A stretch of 64,000 bases of DNA. It comes from a virus. Its lineage: Duplodnaviria; Caudoviricetes. This document shows, piece after piece, positions 24,837 to 27,075 of this stretch. The notes beneath the pieces were generated by a model. It did no database searches. It was not told where the DNA came from and was given only the letters and a program-made list of their open reading frames with translations. Location: the IMG/VR virus record IMGVR_UViG_3300031420_000495, positions 193,407 to 257,406 of that record; one strand, written 5' to 3'. Both the position numbers and the translations under genes were made by a program. The first letter of the stretch is position 1. Each line of letters opens with the position of its first letter.

Positions 24837-24923
24837 TGGTGGGCGCACAGAGAATCGAACTCTGTCTGGACTTTCGTCTCGGCGGGTTAAAAGCCCGCTT
24901 CCTACCCATTTGGAACTACGCCC
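24837..24923 (-). tRNA. tRNA-Lys(TTT) with long variable arm
   Basis: Loop CT-TTT-AA; 17-nt V region with GAC-GAAA-GTC; 3-bp D stem. Confidence 0.85.
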
Positions 24924-24930
24924 GTTAGGT

Positions 24931-25006
24931 TGGTGGGTGCGGTGGGAGTCGAACCCACAACCTAACGGGTAAAAGCCGTTTGCTCTGCCAGTTGAGCTAC
25001 ACACCC
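24931..25006 (-). tRNA. tRNA-Lys(TTT), canonical
   Basis: Loop CT-TTT-AC. Confidence 0.95.
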
Positions 25007-25062
25007 ATAAGTTTGTCACATTTGTCACTAGACATGACAGTCACTCCTTATGGTTAATAATC

Positions 25063-25137
25063 TGGACCCACCTACAGGAATCGAACCTGTGTCTTCGCGT
25101 TCGTAGCGCAATGCAATATCCACTATACTAAGGTGAG
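25063..25137 (-). tRNA. tRNA-Arg(ACG), canonical
   Basis: Loop CT-ACG-AA. Confidence 0.92.
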
Positions 25138-25143
25138 TATGTT

Positions 25144-25219
25144 TGGTGCCGCCTACTGGTTACGATCCAGTCCCTCTTGCTTTTCAGGCAAGCGCTTCCA
25201 CCAGGTTAGCTTAAGCGGC
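25144..25219 (-). tRNA. tRNA-Phe(GAA), atypical T-loop ATCGTAA
   Basis: Loop CT-GAA-AA; A8. Confidence 0.85.
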
Positions 25220-25225
25220 AATGTT

Positions 25226-25299
25226 TGGCGACTCGTAGGGGAATCGGACCCCTTTCTTACCCTGGACAGGGGTAGGTAATACCAATATACGAACGAGCC
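25226..25299 (-). tRNA. tRNA-Asp(GTC)
   Basis: Loop CT-GTC-CA; G73. Confidence 0.92.
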
Positions 25300-25301
25300 A
25301 T

Positions 25302-25378
25302 CGGGGTGATTTCGGGAGTCCAACCCGTTCTACAGGGTTTTCTCGCCCTGTCGTGCTACGCGTTACACTAAAACCACC
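25302..25378 (-). pseudogene. Degenerate His-derived tRNA-like gene
   Basis: G-1:C73 acceptor like tRNA-His; 8-nt loop CGAGAAAA; T-loop TTGGACT; ends CCG. Confidence 0.6.
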
Positions 25379-25389
25379 ATTGTGAAACT

Positions 25390-25465
25390 TGGCTCCCCAG
25401 GCAGGACTCGAACCTACAACCGGTGCATTAACAGTGCACGACTCTACCAATTGAGCTACTGGGGA
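25390..25465 (-). tRNA. tRNA-Asn(GTT), canonical
   Basis: Loop CT-GTT-AA; G73. Confidence 0.95.
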
Positions 25466-25472
25466 AGTGTTT

Positions 25473-25550
25473 TGGCTCCGCGACCAGGAATCGAACCTGG
25501 CTAGTCTTCGTTAACAGCGAAGCGGTTGTCACCATGACGCCTCTCGCGGA
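25473..25550 (-). tRNA. tRNA-Asn(GTT), atypical D-arm
   Basis: Loop CT-GTT-AA; D region GAGGCGTCATGGTGACAACCG. Confidence 0.82.
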
Positions 25551-25556
25551 ATTGTT

Positions 25557-25632
25557 TGGTGTACCCTACAGGTTTCGAACCTGTCTCTGCGGTTTTTCAA
25601 ACCGCCGCTTTCACCAGATTAGCTTAGGGTAC
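25557..25632 (-). tRNA. tRNA-Phe(GAA)
   Basis: Loop TT-GAA-AA. Confidence 0.9.
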
Positions 25633-25846
25633 TTTGTTCTTTCGCTGTTTCCAGCATCTTCATGTGCTTGCTGATCCAACGCATGAAGAACAAACCTTTG
25701 TCTTCTGCAAGGAACGTAGCACCAGCAGTGTCGGATAGCGGAATCGGAAATTCGAAACCGTCTTTGCAGACGTACCAAAGTTCAGAGTCAGCGAGCCGGA
25801 CAAACTTCACGGAACTGCCAACACGTTCTTTCAATACACTCATCAT
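25619..25846 (-). CDS. Small hypothetical protein inside the tRNA array
   Basis: ORF with GAGG SD (LWY....GFEFPIPLSD..GATF...KG..FMRWI.KH). Confidence 0.75.
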   Translation of the reverse strand: MMSVLKERVGSSVKFVRLADSELWYVCKDGFEFPIPLSDTAGATFLAEDKGLFFMRWISKHMKMLETAKEQSTLS

Positions 25847-25858
25847 ACACCTCTAATA

Positions 25859-25942
25859 TGGCGCCGTGAACGGGGATCGAACCCGCCTAGCACGAAGGCA
25901 CTGATCGACAATCAGTTGATTTCTCCAGAAATCTACCACGGC
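25859..25942 (-). tRNA. tRNA-Asp(GTC) with long variable arm
   Basis: Loop TT-GTC-GA; 13-nt V region. Confidence 0.85.
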
Positions 25943-25950
25943 ATTTTGTT

Positions 25951-26035
25951 TGGAGTTCCGCGGGGGAATCGAACCCCAGTCCTGAGGACGTCGCCTTGAA
26001 AGGGCGAGGACAGTTACCAGCCGTCATCGCGGAAC
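25951..26035 (-). tRNA. tRNA-Glu(TTC) with long variable arm
   Basis: Loop CT-TTC-AA; V hairpin GTCC-TCA-GGAC. Confidence 0.85.
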
Positions 26036-26041
26036 AGTGTT

Positions 26042-26116
26042 TGGCGGAAATGACGGGATTCGAACCCGCGCAAGTCTGATCGACAATCAGGTGCTCTACC
26101 ACTGAGCTACATCTCC
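26042..26116 (-). tRNA. tRNA-Asp(GTC), canonical
   Basis: Loop TT-GTC-GA; G73. Confidence 0.93.
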
Positions 26117-26122
26117 GTTGTT

Positions 26123-26205
26123 TGGTATTCCTAGGGAGAATCGAACTCCTTGCCTAAGCGTCCGGTTGAAAGCCGGATGACAGTCACCAACCGTCAACTA
26201 GGAAT
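26123..26205 (-). tRNA. tRNA-Glu(TTC) with extended variable arm
   Basis: Loop CT-TTC-AA; 10-nt V region. Confidence 0.85.
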
Positions 26206-26212
26206 ATTGTTT

Positions 26213-26287
26213 TGGTGGGGCGCCGCAGAATCGAACTGCGCTCTCTCCGGTTAAGAGCCGGGACTTCGCCAGCAAAGTTTGCACCCC
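26213..26287 (-). tRNA. tRNA-Lys(CTT)
   Basis: Loop CT-CTT-AA; A8. Confidence 0.87.
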
Positions 26288-26292
26288 ATGTT

Positions 26293-26367
26293 TGGTATCG
26301 CCGAGGAGAATCGAACTCCCGTTCCCAGATTGAAAGTCTAGTGTCCTAACCGTTAGACGACGGCGAT
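26293..26367 (-). tRNA. tRNA-Glu(TTC), canonical
   Basis: Loop CT-TTC-AA. Confidence 0.93.
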
Positions 26368-26374
26368 ATAATTC

Positions 26375-26447
26375 TGGTACCACCGGCAGGAGTCGAGCCT
26401 GCGTAATCGCGCTTCGTAGGCGCAACACCGAATCCCTCGGCGGTGGT
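26375..26447 (-). tRNA. tRNA-Arg(ACG), minimal D-arm
   Basis: Loop CT-ACG-AA; D region CCGAGGGATTCGG; T-loop CTCGACT. Confidence 0.8.
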
Positions 26448-26454
26448 ATAATTC

Positions 26455-26781
26455 TTATGCAGCTACACGATCAGGTTTCTGTGCATCGAGCATTTCGATA
26501 TACGCGTGCGGCGAAGTGCCGACATCCAGCGTATGAATTTTCTCGAAGCCGTTTTCCTTCGTAATCATCGAGTCTTTCGACTTGATGCCGCCAGTGTACT
26601 TGCCGTCGCCTTTCTTGTGCATCAGATCGCCGGAAGCCGGATCGATCGAACCCCAATCAGGGGTGTGTGCATCAGCGAGAACTTCGACGTAGTACTTTGC
26701 ACCAGTGCGGATTGATGATACAATGAAGCGTCCGGTTTCGTCAGTGTTCGTGAGGAATCGTTTGGTGAAGTCGGCGTTCAT
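26455..26781 (-). CDS. Hypothetical protein inside the tRNA array
   Basis: Start trimmed to MNADFTKRF behind AGGAG. Confidence 0.8.
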   Translation of the reverse strand: MNADFTKRFLTNTDETGRFIVSSIRTGAKYYVEVLADAHTPDWGSIDPASGDLMHKKGDGKYTGGIKSKDSMITKENGFEKIHTLDVGTSPHAYIEMLDAQKPDRVAA

Positions 26782-26811
26782 GGTGTATCTCCTGCTCTGG
26801 TTATGGGTAAT

Positions 26812-26884
26812 TGGCAACCGCGTAGAGAATCGAACTCTATCCAATTTCGCTCAGAACGAAACGTGCCTGCCAAGGCTCACGGCA
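26812..26884 (-). tRNA. tRNA-Gln(CTG), minimal D-arm
   Basis: Loop TT-CTG-AG; T1.T72; D hairpin GCCT-TGGC-AGGC. Confidence 0.8.
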
Positions 26885-26890
26885 TCTGTT

Positions 26891-26982
26891 TGGCTCCCCG
26901 AGGTGGACTCGAACCACCATAACCGCCGAAGCGGTATACGTCTGATTAACAGTCAGGTCTCTTACCATTAGAGTACCGGGGA
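26891..26982 (-). tRNA. tRNA-Asn(GTT) with 22-nt variable arm
   Basis: Loop CT-GTT-AA; V hairpin ACCGC-TTCG-GCGGT. Confidence 0.85.
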
Positions 26983-26990
26983 ATTGTTAC

Positions 26991-27075
26991 TGGTCGTTGG
27001 GGTAGGAATTGAACCTACGTTGTCAATAATGACCTGGATTATCGGTCCAGTGCCTAACCATTCGGCCACCCAACG
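26991..27075 (-). tRNA. tRNA-Ile(GAT) with long variable arm and C33
   Basis: Loop CC-GAT-AA; Leu-like 3-bp D stem; 15-nt V region; A73. Confidence 0.82.

What the first reader, a model, noticed from the sequence alone, without database searches (positions are those of the whole stretch)
24837..27075. Long variable arms on Lys, Asp, Glu, Asn and Ile tRNAs
Seen: six genes with V regions of 17 (Lys TTT), 13 (Asp), 12 and 10 (Glu), 22 (Asn, UUCG hairpin) and 15 nt (Ile). Established: bacterial long V arms are normally limited to Leu, Ser, Tyr and Sec. The Lys and Ile genes also have class II 3-bp D stems and A73, which are LeuRS-compatible features, and the Ile gene has C33. Inference: either nuclease-resistant cognate tRNAs, or body/anticodon mismatches that insert Leu or Ser at Lys or Ile codons.
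Basis: partly seen in the sequence, partly recalled or inferred. Interest (0 to 1): 0.7.

Follow-up and report, generated by a model that had tools for sequence, protein, structure and literature searches.

The report
Phage tRNAs carrying an extra arm
A giant uncultured phage encodes six tRNAs for lysine, aspartate, glutamate, asparagine and isoleucine that carry the extra hairpin arm normally reserved for Leu, Ser and Tyr tRNAs; the design recurs and is conserved in related phages, and most likely gives the phage spare decoders that host tRNA-cutting defences handle badly.

Summary
ARAGORN, Infernal and free-energy folding agree that six genes of a 28-gene tRNA array in a 257-kb jumbo phage have variable regions of 17, 13, 12-13, 10, 22-23 and 15 nt.

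They are not decay products as a class:
- The Asn form belongs to a phage-only family of at least 16 distinct sequences. Every stem pairs, 13 pairs show compensatory changes (two in the extra arm), and GUU, G73 and U1-A72 are invariant.
- The Ile, Lys and 85-nt Glu genes each have an orthologue with a compensated arm.
- In relatives fetched through a protein, 11 of 12 arrays hold such a tRNA, nearly always beside a short-arm twin.

The Leu/Ser mis-insertion reading is weak. Lys and Asn bodies are cognate-like, A73 is the cognate discriminator, and the 3-bp D stem also occurs in short-arm phage tRNAs. The two Glu genes are tRNA-Sec/allo-tRNA-like (8/4), and their charging is open.

Best reading (about 45%): cognately charged back-up decoders whose arm hinders host tRNases. 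Charging and resistance are untested.

This scan noted similar extra-arm Lys tRNAs in other phages. I found no published description.

The parts
24837..24923 (-). tRNA-Lys(UUU) with 17-nt variable region (CGA, a 3-bp stem with GAAA loop, CAGA); A73; CCA encoded
   Evidence: ARAGORN; Rfam tRNA 41.4 bits; MFE keeps the hairpin. The orthologue L002:36-123 has the same arm layout with stem GAC/GUC changed to UGC/GCA.
24931..25006 (-). Canonical-size twin tRNA-Lys(UUU), 76 nt, 7 nt upstream of the long gene
   Evidence: ARAGORN; Rfam 70.7 bits
25859..25942 (-). tRNA-Asp(GUC) with 13-nt variable region and no stable stem; G73, G1-C72, C2-G71, A38
   Evidence: ARAGORN; Rfam tRNA 41.2 bits with a 10-nt insertion in the V region. 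No orthologue found.
25951..26035 (-). tRNA-Glu(UUC), 85 nt, drawn as 8-bp acceptor and 4-bp T stem, with a 5-6-bp D stem, a 3-4-bp extra arm and U73
   Evidence: ARAGORN; MFE; best Rfam match tRNA-Sec 39.3 bits, cut-off 47. The orthologue L065:10968-11052 has 3 compensated acceptor pairs and 2 compensated arm pairs.
26123..26205 (-). tRNA-Glu(UUC), 83 nt, 10-nt variable region, same long D arm as the 85-nt gene, 8/4 in the MFE fold, A73
   Evidence: ARAGORN; MFE. No Rfam tRNA hit at E<=10; no orthologue found.
26293..26367 (-). Canonical tRNA-Glu(UUC), 75 nt, with U11-A24, U13.G22 and a 4-nt variable loop (the E. coli-type GluRS core determinants)
   Evidence: ARAGORN; Rfam 61.7 bits; sequence
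26042..26116 (-). Canonical tRNA-Asp(GUC), 75 nt; its anticodon stem-loop core (CUGAUUGUCGAUCAG) is identical to that of the long Asp gene
   Evidence: Rfam 68.1 bits
26891..26982 (-). tRNA-Asn(GUU), 92 nt, with an extra arm of 8-9 bp, one bulge and a UUCG loop; U1-A72, G73
   Evidence: ARAGORN; Rfam 52 bits. Family of 16 distinct sequences. Covariation shown.
25390..25550 (-). Two short-arm tRNA-Asn(GUU) genes (76 and 78 nt), twins of the long Asn gene
   Evidence: ARAGORN
26991..27075 (-). tRNA-Ile(GAU), 85 nt, extra arm GUCA-UUAU-UGAC plus AAC, 3-bp D stem, C32 C33, A73
   Evidence: ARAGORN; Rfam 58.1 bits; MFE gives the exact five-arm fold. The orthologue L001:2608-2690 has arm GUC-GAAA-GAC plus AAC and U33.
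27255..27328 (-). Canonical tRNA-Ile(GAU), 74 nt, twin of the long Ile gene
   Evidence: ARAGORN; Rfam 61.1 bits
21010..27409 (-). The whole tRNA array: 28 ARAGORN genes covering 17 anticodons, with many structurally unlike duplicates
27704..27826 (-). 40-codon mini-ORF upstream of the array; 35 of its 40 residues are amino acids served by the array (context only)

Best explanation
The six genes are real phage tRNA genes. Most are selectively maintained. They keep the anticodon and acceptor-end marks of their own amino acid but carry an inserted hairpin in the variable region. The phage keeps each one next to an ordinary short-arm gene with the same anticodon. The most likely working model has three parts. 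Host synthetases still charge them with the cognate amino acid (the held 257 kb encodes no synthetase). They decode the phage's commonest codons (AAA, GAY, GAA, AAY, AUY). The extra arm projects from the junction just 3' of the anticodon stem and makes them poor substrates for host defence tRNases that grip or cut the anticodon stem or variable region. Translation can then continue when the host's tRNAs and the phage's ordinary tRNAs are cut. Shown here: the structures, their conservation and covariation, their restriction to phages, the twin arrangement, and intact major identity elements for Lys, Asn, Ile and largely Asp. Inferred: cognate charging, use on the ribosome, and nuclease resistance. 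The model is weakest for the 83-nt Glu and the Asp gene (no orthologue, poor arm) and for the charging identity of both Glu genes.
For: (1) Structure is confirmed by three methods.
(2) The Asn family: a motif scan found about 20 IMG/VR contigs. In the 11-sequence type-A alignment, 100% of cells pair, 13 of 26 pairs show changes on both sides (2 of 3 in the distal arm helix), and 0 of 500 shuffles reach this. GUU, G73 and U1-A72 are invariant.
(3) Orthologues of Ile-long (L001), Lys-long (L002) and Glu-85 (L065) keep the arm through compensatory changes. The array-embedded protein used to fetch L001 and L002 is only 67% and 63% identical to the window's.
(4) In loci fetched through that protein rather than through a tRNA feature, 11 of 12 distinct tRNA-bearing relatives carry at least one long-arm tRNA of a class I isotype (15 of 208 genes). 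In the window it is 6 of 29. In the window 6 of 6, and in relatives about 12 of 15, have a short-arm gene with the same anticodon in the same locus.
(5) The family is restricted to phages. There is one hit in 185,579 species genomes: a 10-kb contig at about 1x coverage with an 18-tRNA array, binned to a MAG. There are no hits in 50,697 GenBank phage records.
(6) Bodies: Lys and Asn are nearest to their own isotype.
(7) Identity sets from PMC9976931: Lys UUU+A73, Asn GUU+G73, Ile GAU+A73+A37 and Asp GUC+G73 are all present.
(8) The anticodons match the phage's preferred codons, and these five amino acids make up about 28% of its codons. The upstream mini-ORF is enriched in the array's amino acids.
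(9) Context: the phage carries an RNA ligase, a CCA-adding enzyme and Ro60.
(10) Precedent: T5 tRNA-Lys, Thr and Asn variants neutralise PARIS, whose AriB cuts between positions 40 and 41 of the anticodon stem (PMC12409363). [quoted passage not shown]
Against: There are no data on expression, charging or cleavage for any of the six genes.
[quoted passage not shown] These are listed as major GluRS determinants (PMC9976931), and the phage's own 75-nt Glu gene keeps them.
- Ile-long lacks all three minor IleRS stem determinants and has C33 instead of the near-universal U33.
- Asp-long has C2-G71 and A38.
- Glu-83 fails the Rfam tRNA model.
- Asp-long and Glu-83 have no orthologue and almost no arm pairing, so they may be drifting copies.
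- From my own knowledge: class IIb synthetases (Lys, Asn, Asp) approach tRNA from the variable-loop side, so a long arm might hinder rather than spare charging.
- The published resistant phage tRNAs differ by point changes at the cut site. None gains an arm, so the shielding role of the arm has no direct precedent.
Confidence: 0.45

Rival explanations
1. Decoys or handles rather than decoders. The extra-arm RNAs are tRNA-shaped molecules that bind and titrate host tRNases, or are bound by a phage protein (repair enzymes, Ro60, an unknown array-encoded protein). They contribute little to translation, and the short-arm twins do the decoding.
For: Every long gene is redundant with a short-arm twin. 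The type-A Asn arm has an invariant 3x4 internal loop (AAG opposite GUAA) and an invariant basal helix, which is more typical of a recognition site than a spacer. The Lys arms of the window and L002 share flanks and loop (CGA...GAAA...CANA) although the bodies are very different. Asn-long keeps the exact U36-AAUC-A41 sequence that AriB cuts in E. coli tRNA-Lys (PMC12409363), and that paper raises inhibition of AriB by over-expressed viral tRNAs as a possibility. Y-like RNAs and Ro60 are encoded in and near the array (earlier notes e1-5321316 and e1-5321314, not tested here).
Against: Anticodon, discriminator and the 1-72 pair are invariant across the Asn family. CCA is encoded and the anticodon loops are regular 7-nt loops, which is what a decoder needs and more than a decoy needs. 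No binding protein was identified: the array ORFs have no Pfam or PHROG function.
Confidence: 0.15
2. Missense tRNAs. The long arm, the A73, G73 or U73 discriminator and, in the Glu genes, the 8/4 shape divert some of these tRNAs to SerRS, LeuRS or TyrRS, so Ser, Leu or Tyr is inserted at Lys, Asp, Glu, Asn or Ile codons. This would parallel nematode nev-tRNAs and some allo-tRNAs.
For: Precedents exist. nev-tRNAs with Gly and Ile anticodons are charged only with Leu (PMC3333845). Allo-tRNAs with long arms and G73 or U73 are read as Ser acceptors (PMC5389517). For SerRS the size of the arm and G73 are the main determinants (PMC9976931; PMC7609411); Asn-long has both. Glu-85 has U73, an 8/4 fold and a long D stem, fits the tRNA-Sec model best and lacks the GluRS core determinants. 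The 22 nt spanning the 3' end of the arm and most of the T arm of Ile-long are identical to those of a phage tRNA-Tyr (L106). The bodies of Asp-long, Glu-85 and Ile-long are not resolved to any isotype.
Against: The Lys and Asn bodies are cognate-like, unlike nev-tRNAs, which derive from tRNA-Leu. Asn-long has U1-A72, C2-G71 and U11-A24 where bacterial tRNA-Ser has G1-C72, G2-C71 and (from my own knowledge) C11-G24. The arms of Lys, Ile, Glu and Asp are only 0-4 bp, short for SerRS. A73 in Lys and Ile is cognate. The D arm taken as class II occurs in short-arm tRNAs. The affected codons are about 28% of the phage's own coding sequence. The anticodon is fixed within each family, with an isodecoder twin alongside.
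Confidence: 0.12
3. Tolerated insertions in redundant gene copies. The variable region is the part of a tRNA that accepts insertions most easily. In an array full of duplicates some copies drift, and the arms have no function of their own.
For: All six have twins. Asp-long and Glu-83 have no orthologue and little or no arm pairing. Glu-83 gets no Rfam tRNA hit. C33 is private to this phage's Ile gene. The array holds other deviant genes: a 70-nt Arg, a 78-nt Trp with a mismatched acceptor stem, and a tRNA-like gene with an 8-nt loop at 25300-25389.
Against: The arms are kept and compensated across phages whose array-embedded protein is only about 60-68% identical. The Asn arm is invariant at its base and internal loop in 11 sequences. 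Long arms recur in 11 of 12 relatives and across at least 12 isotypes but in none of 38 Arg, 24 Phe, 22 Pro, 26 Val or 20 Gly genes. That sample was partly picked with an Asn motif.
Confidence: 0.18

Closest known systems
allo-tRNAs and (8/4) tRNA-Ser / tRNA-His of bacteria and phages (Mukai et al. 2017, PMC5389517)
   Same: [quoted passage not shown] The two long Glu genes share the 8-bp acceptor, 4-bp T stem and long D stem, and Glu-85 has U73.
   Different: Four of the six genes are ordinary 7/5 cloverleaves with normal D arms and 5-bp anticodon stems. Their acceptor and discriminator marks are those of the anticodon's own amino acid, not of Ser. An 8/4 tRNA with a Glu anticodon and extra-arm tRNAs for Lys, Asn and Ile are not among the cases that paper describes, in the passages I read.
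Nematode nev-tRNAs (Hamashima et al. 2012, PMC3333845)
   Same: They carry a long arm together with anticodons for class I amino acids such as Ile and Gly.
   Different: nev-tRNAs descend from tRNA-Leu and are charged with Leu. Here the Lys and Asn bodies group with their own isotype, and the arm looks like an insertion or graft. The organisms also differ: eukaryote versus phage.
Phage tRNA variants that neutralise tRNA-cleaving defences: T5 tRNA-Lys(UUU), Thr(UGU), Asn(GUU) against PARIS AriB, and T5 tRNA-Tyr against retron-Eco7 PtuAB (PMC12409363, PMC13096335, PMC10264068)
   Same: These are phage-encoded isodecoders of tRNA species that defences attack, including Lys UUU and Asn GUU. They differ from host tRNA near the nuclease's site. 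In the Tyr case the difference lies in the variable loop.
   Different: The known variants differ by a few substitutions and keep the normal class of the tRNA. Here a whole helix is added to class I isotypes. Resistance has not been tested.
Type I (short-loop) tRNA-Leu of Streptomyces coelicolor (Fan et al. 2019, PMC6614811)
   Same: It shows that the class I / class II boundary can be crossed within one isotype while the cognate synthetase still charges both forms. Relatives of this phage carry 77-78-nt tRNA-Leu genes.
   Different: The direction is opposite (loss of the arm), the setting is a cellular genome, and the LeuRS is adapted to it.

Membership tests
Class II tRNA (Leu/Ser/Tyr type) | Variable region of 10 nt or more that forms a stem-loop | tested here: met
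   V is 17, 13, 12-13, 10, 22-23 and 15 nt. Stems are 3 bp (Lys), 4 bp (Ile), 3-4 bp (Glu-85) and 8-9 bp (Asp has none; Asn has this one). Asp and Glu-83 have length but no convincing stem.
Class II tRNA (Leu/Ser/Tyr type) | Anticodon for Leu, Ser or Tyr | tested here: not met
   The anticodons are UUU, GUC, UUC, UUC, GUU and GAU.
Class II tRNA (Leu/Ser/Tyr type) | Bacterial Ser identity set: long arm, G73, G1-C72, G2-C71 (PMC9976931) | tested here: not met
   Asn has G73 and a long arm but U1-A72 and C2-G71. Asp has G73 and G1-C72 but C2-G71 and no stem. Lys has G1-C72 and G2-C71 but A73 and a 3-bp arm. Ile has A73. Glu-85 has U73 and Glu-83 has A73.
Class II tRNA (Leu/Ser/Tyr type) | Leu identity: A73 plus specific D-loop and tertiary layout | tested here: inconclusive
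   A73 is present in Lys, Ile and Glu-83 but is also cognate for Lys and Ile. The Ile D arm is shared with short-arm Ile, Lys, Cys and Gly phage tRNAs. Body identity to Leu is at most 0.72, against 0.76-0.84 to Ile. The host LeuRS rules are unknown.
allo-tRNA / tRNA-Sec-like tRNAs (PMC5389517; Rfam RF01852) | 8/4 or 9/3 split of the 12-bp acceptor/T branch | tested here: met
   This holds only for the two Glu genes. ARAGORN draws 8/4 for Glu-85, MFE gives 8/4 for both, and Infernal aligns Glu-85 to the tRNA-Sec architecture. The eighth pair is G-C in the window and L065 and A-U in L009. The other four genes are 7/5.
allo-tRNA / tRNA-Sec-like tRNAs (PMC5389517; Rfam RF01852) | Long D stem with a tetraloop, 6-bp anticodon stem, score above the family cut-off | tested here: not met
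   The Glu D stems are 5-6 bp but have a 5-nt loop. The anticodon stem is 5 bp, with the sixth pair a C.C mismatch. The tRNA-Sec score is 39.3 against a cut-off of 47, and Glu-83 has no hit.
Cognate class I tRNA of the same amino acid (identity sets of PMC9976931) | Major determinants: anticodon plus discriminator (Lys UUU/A73; Asn GUU/G73; Asp GUC/G73; Ile GAU/A73/A37; Glu U34 U35 C36 A37) | tested here: met
   All are present in the six genes. They are invariant in the 16-member Asn family.
Cognate class I tRNA of the same amino acid (identity sets of PMC9976931) | Secondary and core determinants known from E. coli | tested here: not met
   [quoted passage not shown] Ile lacks C4-G69, U12-A23 and C29-G41, and has C33. 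Asp has A38 instead of C38 (as do the two short Asp genes) and C2-G71.
Cognate class I tRNA of the same amino acid (identity sets of PMC9976931) | 4-5-nt variable loop | tested here: not met
   V is 10-23 nt.
Cognate class I tRNA of the same amino acid (identity sets of PMC9976931) | Aminoacylation by the cognate synthetase | not testable with these tools
   This needs charging assays. No synthetase domain is present in the held 257 kb, and the record is estimated to be 71% complete.
Phage tRNA variants that neutralise tRNA-cleaving defences | Phage-encoded isodecoder of a tRNA species that defence nucleases attack | tested here: met
   Lys(UUU) and Asn(GUU) are AriB targets (PMC12409363). From my own knowledge, Lys, Glu, Asp and Asn are classic anticodon-nuclease targets.
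Phage tRNA variants that neutralise tRNA-cleaving defences | Resistance to cleavage and rescue of infection | not testable with these tools
   This needs biochemical and plaque assays.

The most novel reading that the evidence does not exclude
The extra arm is a portable, phage-specific module that phages add to class I tRNAs while host synthetases still accept them. The Asn type has a conserved internal loop, and there is a hint of grafting from class II genes within arrays. It would give a general structural counter-defence against tRNases that grip the anticodon stem or variable region, such as AriB, OLD, Schlafen and PtuAB types. This would break the textbook rule that only Leu, Ser, Tyr and Sec tRNAs carry this arm. 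A second strand is that the 8/4 Glu(UUC) pair is a phage-borne allo-tRNA-type species whose charging identity, Glu or Ser, is open.
Probability: 0.3. Interest if true: 0.8.

Novelty: new variant of a known kind. Interest (0 to 1): 0.62.

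Why it matters
The division of tRNAs into class I (4-5-nt loop) and class II (Leu, Ser, Tyr and Sec with an arm) is treated as fixed in bacteria, and it underlies synthetase recognition rules. A conserved, phage-only set of extra-arm tRNAs for at least a dozen class I amino acids, always kept beside ordinary twins, would have three consequences if confirmed:

- **A natural test of synthetase tolerance.** It would show how far Lys-, Asn-, Asp-, Glu- and Ile-tRNA synthetases tolerate an arm.
- **A new counter-defence principle.** It would add a structural strategy to the known point-mutation strategy by which phage tRNAs escape tRNA-cleaving immunity.
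- **Practical uses.** It would supply ready-made orthogonal or tag-bearing tRNA scaffolds for genetic-code engineering. It would also alert annotators that isotype calls for long phage tRNAs should not default to Leu, Ser or Tyr.

If the genes instead mischarge, they would be the first phage-borne missense tRNAs of this kind.

Tried and rejected
- **Expression:** the search of public runs listed no RNA holder. Only two phyllosphere DNA runs, probably the source samples, hold the stretch.
- **Cultured relatives:** blastn of Asn-long and Lys-long against 50,697 GenBank phage records gave no match. Broader blastn of the array hit only ordinary tRNAs.
- **Orthologues of Glu-83 and Asp-long:** the Glu D-arm motif scan found L065 (an orthologue of Glu-85) plus two chance matches that are not tRNAs (L064, L066). 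The Asp D-arm motif gave 36 chance matches, none in a tRNA. The Lys arm motif found only the L002 contig again.
- **Donors of the arms:** local alignment of each V region against 560 phage tRNAs gave no clear donor. The only lead is the identical 22-nt segment (3' end of the arm plus most of the T arm) shared by Ile-long and a tRNA-Tyr in L106.
- **Phage-encoded synthetases:** Pfam PF00152, PF00587, PF00133 and PF00749 gave no match in the 257 kb. The record is incomplete, so this is weak.
- **Array-embedded ORFs:** there is no functional Pfam or PHROG match.
- **Y RNA reading of these genes:** YrlA hits of 21.5 and 14.4 bits against a cut-off of 69 were rejected.
- **Intron or mis-drawn cloverleaf:** rejected, because anticodon loops are regular 7-nt loops and three methods place the extra bases between the anticodon and T stems.
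- **Host identification:** not achieved.
- **Structure or complex prediction:** not attempted, because the tools fold proteins only.

Full report
**Setting.** The window is the last 64 kb of a single 257,406-bp virus record with 51% G+C. The run search places it in phyllosphere metagenomes. On the minus strand between 21010 and 27409 lies an array of 28 ARAGORN tRNA genes covering only 17 anticodons. One further Arg gene sits at 58880. The same window encodes a Ro60/TROVE protein, a CCA-adding enzyme and an RNA ligase. No aminoacyl-tRNA synthetase catalytic domain is detectable in the 257 kb, although the record is rated about 71% complete.

- ARAGORN draws all six genes with long variable (V) regions: Lys(UUU) 17 nt, Asp 13, Glu 12-13 and 10, Asn 22-23, Ile 15. 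All end in an encoded CCA.
- Infernal scores four of them well above the Rfam tRNA cut-off and places the surplus bases as an insertion in the V region.
- Unconstrained folding recovers the fifth arm for Ile, Lys and Glu-85 and most of it for Asn.
- The Ile gene has C32 and C33 and a 3-bp D stem. Both the Ile and Lys genes have A73.
- Two genes are weaker. Asp-long and Glu-83 have the length but hardly any arm pairing, and Glu-83 gets no Rfam tRNA hit even at E<=10.
- As a control, every T5 tRNA longer than 80 nt is Ser, Leu or Tyr.

**Are they maintained by selection?** For four of the six there is comparative evidence.

A protein encoded inside the array (26455-26781) retrieved 15 IMG/VR loci from phages of 100-435 kb. 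It is 47-68% identical to the window's copy. Twelve distinct loci carry tRNA arrays, and 11 of these hold at least one long-arm tRNA of a class I isotype, 15 of 208 such genes in all. This sample was not chosen by any tRNA feature. The window has 6 of 29.

- **Asn.** A motif from its anticodon arm and arm base found about 20 viral contigs, giving 16 distinct long sequences. In the 11-sequence type-A alignment every cell of every stem pairs. Thirteen of 26 pairs carry changes on both sides, including two of three pairs in the distal arm helix, and no shuffle or slid register approaches this. The anticodon, G73 and U1-A72 never vary. The arm comes in two types. Type A has an invariant basal helix and an invariant AAG/GUAA internal loop under a GNRA-capped stem. 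Type B, which includes the window, is a nearly continuous 8-9-bp helix with a 1-2-nt bulge. A short-arm relative (L036) shows the arm as a clean insertion.
- **Ile.** The orthologue in L001 has arm GUC-GAAA-GAC+AAC, against GUCA-UUAU-UGAC+AAC in the window.
- **Lys.** The orthologue in L002 has the same layout (CGA, a 3-bp stem with GAAA loop, CANA) with a compensated stem, on a very different body.
- **Glu-85.** The orthologue in L065 has three compensated acceptor pairs and two compensated arm pairs.
- **Asp-long and Glu-83.** No orthologue was found.

The Asn family is essentially confined to phages. It has one hit in 185,579 species genomes: a 10-kb low-coverage contig with 18 tRNA genes, probably a mis-binned phage fragment. 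It has none among cultured-phage records.

**Whose tRNAs are they?** I removed the V region, masked the anticodon and compared each body with 560 distinct phage tRNAs.

| Gene | Best identity to own isotype (short arm) | Best identity to Leu/Ser/Tyr | Reading |
|---|---|---|---|
| Lys-long | 0.81 | at most 0.70 | cognate-like |
| Asn-long | 0.83 | at most 0.68 | cognate-like |
| Glu-83 | 0.73 | at most 0.68 | leans to Glu |
| Ile-long | 0.76 (0.84 to its long orthologue) | 0.72 (Leu) | ties with other class I tRNAs at 0.76 |
| Glu-85 | 0.68 | 0.71 | unresolved |
| Asp-long | 0.72 | 0.74 | unresolved |

It says nothing about Leu or Ser ancestry. One hint of grafting exists: 22 nt spanning the 3' end of the arm and most of the T arm of Ile-long are identical to a phage tRNA-Tyr in L106.

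I compared the genes with the identity sets compiled by Giege and Eriani (PMC9976931).
- **Present:** the major determinants of Lys (UUU, A73), Asn (GUU, G73), Ile (GAU, A37, A73) and Asp (GUC, G73).
- **Missing:** minor Ile stem determinants, C38 and G2-C71 of Asp, and all three core determinants of GluRS in both long Glu genes. The phage's 75-nt Glu gene keeps those Glu determinants.
- **Ser set:** no gene has the full bacterial Ser set. Asn-long has G73 and a Ser-sized arm but U1-A72 and C2-G71.

**The Glu pair is a special case.** ARAGORN, MFE folding and the Infernal alignment all give an 8-bp acceptor stem, a 4-bp T stem and a 5-6-bp D stem with a small loop. Glu-85 has U73 and fits the tRNA-Sec model better than the tRNA model, though below its cut-off. 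This is the architecture of allo-tRNAs and of the (8/4) tRNA-Ser and tRNA-His reported from bacteria and phages (PMC5389517). The anticodon stem length and D loop do not match. Their charging identity is therefore open.

**How it most likely works.** Three regularities guide the model.
1. Every long gene sits with a short-arm gene of the same anticodon. This holds for 6 of 6 in the window and about 12 of 15 in relatives, so the arm form supplements the normal form and does not replace it.
2. The array's anticodons match the phage's preferred codons (AAC, GAC, AUC and GAA are the commoner synonyms). The five amino acids served by the long genes make up about 28% of the phage's codons. A 40-codon mini-ORF just upstream is written 35/40 in the array's amino acids, against 54% expected (p = 8e-6). 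This fits ordinary cognate use and makes deliberate missense costly.
3. The genome is equipped for tRNA damage, with an RNA ligase, a CCA enzyme and Ro60.

The literature now shows many defence nucleases that cut tRNA bodies close to where the arm emerges.
- AriB cuts between positions 40 and 41 of Lys(UUU), Thr(UGU) and Asn(GUU), and resistant T5 tRNAs neutralise it (PMC12409363).
- A bacterial Schlafen cuts between positions 30 and 31 (PMC13056530).

Asn-long keeps the exact U36-AAUC-A41 string that AriB cuts in E. coli tRNA-Lys, and it also carries the largest arm.

I therefore read the long genes as cognately charged back-up decoders whose arm sterically spoils recognition by such enzymes. 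The short-arm twins would give full efficiency when no defence is active. Structure, conservation, pairing with twins and identity marks are shown. Charging, decoding and resistance are inferred.

**Rivals.**
- **Decoy or handle role.** This is favoured by the invariant internal loop of the Asn arm and by arm sequences that are better conserved than the bodies.
- **Missense role.** This is most plausible for the Glu pair.
- **Neutral drift in redundant copies.** This is most plausible for Asp-long and Glu-83, and for the private C33.

**Novelty.** Full-text searches for long variable arms or V-arms in phage tRNAs returned only the allo-tRNA paper, an aptamer-tagged allo-tRNA design paper (PMC7590224) and general reviews. 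A review of non-canonical tRNAs does not mention phages. Earlier notes of this scan describe extra-arm Lys tRNAs in other phages and short-arm Leu cassettes, so the phenomenon has been met before in the scan on other DNA. What is added here:
- six such genes in one array, across five amino acids;
- a well-supported phage-only Asn family with two arm types;
- an 8/4 Glu type;
- the regular pairing with short-arm twins;
- the mirror image, 77-78-nt tRNA-Leu genes in relatives.

I class this as a new variant of a known kind of molecule.

Noticed in passing
window 25300-25389 (minus strand): This 90-nt gap between Asp-74 and Asn-76 folds like a tRNA with acceptor, D and T arms. It has an 8-nt anticodon-type loop (CGAGAAAA) and no CCA, and ARAGORN does not call it.
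   Followed up: partly
window 24362-24492 (minus strand): This is a tRNA-like RNA of about 128 nt with normal acceptor and T arms, a CCA end and several extra central hairpins. Its Rfam tRNA score is 31.9 bits, just above the cut-off.
   Followed up: partly
L003, L004, L008, L010 (e.g. L003:1712-1788, L008:10625-10701): Relatives carry tRNA-Leu genes of 77-78 nt with 4-5-nt variable loops and A73. In the pooled set 19 of 34 Leu genes have V of 6 nt or less. This is the reverse breach of the class rule.
   Followed up: partly
L003:8515-8604, L008:10174-10265, L022:1065-1154, L023:5794-5882: These are long-arm tRNA-Cys(GCA) genes of 89-92 nt with U73. The L003 and L008 copies lie next to tRNA-Tyr. 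The L023 copy has a Tyr-like D arm; the others share only its loop motif. They look like Tyr-type bodies one anticodon base away from GUA.
   Followed up: no
L106:5513-5597 (minus strand): This tRNA-Tyr(GUA) shares an identical 22-nt segment, the 3' end of the arm plus most of the T arm, with the window's Ile-long gene. This hints that arms move between tRNA genes by recombination.
   Followed up: partly
window 26375-26444 and 23928-24005 (minus strand): There are other deviant duplicates. One is a 70-nt tRNA-Arg(ACG) with a stump of a D arm beside a normal 75-nt copy. The other is a 78-nt tRNA-Trp with a mismatched acceptor stem beside a normal 74-nt copy.
   Followed up: no
window 24583-24656 and 21757-21830 (minus strand): Both tRNA-His genes have C73, but only the second has an encoded G at position -1. 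The first has U there.
   Followed up: partly
window 20339-20890 (minus strand): An Endonuclease V homologue (Pfam PF04493, 2.8e-12) lies at the edge of the tRNA array. EndoV enzymes cut at inosine, and the array encodes two tRNA-Arg(ACG) genes that would carry I34.
   Followed up: no
window 26455-26781 (minus strand): This 108-aa protein has no Pfam or PHROG family. It sits inside the tRNA array here and in most of the 15 related loci found with it, which come from phages of 100-435 kb.
   Followed up: partly
window 22648-23529 (minus strand): A papain-family cysteine protease (Pfam PF00112, 1.6e-17) is encoded between tRNA genes of the array.
   Followed up: no
L103 (JAUMAI010000012.1, binned to a Pirellula MAG): This 10-kb contig at about 1x coverage carries 18 tRNA genes, including Asn-long and a long-arm Gln. 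It is probably a phage fragment mis-binned into a bacterial MAG.
   Followed up: partly
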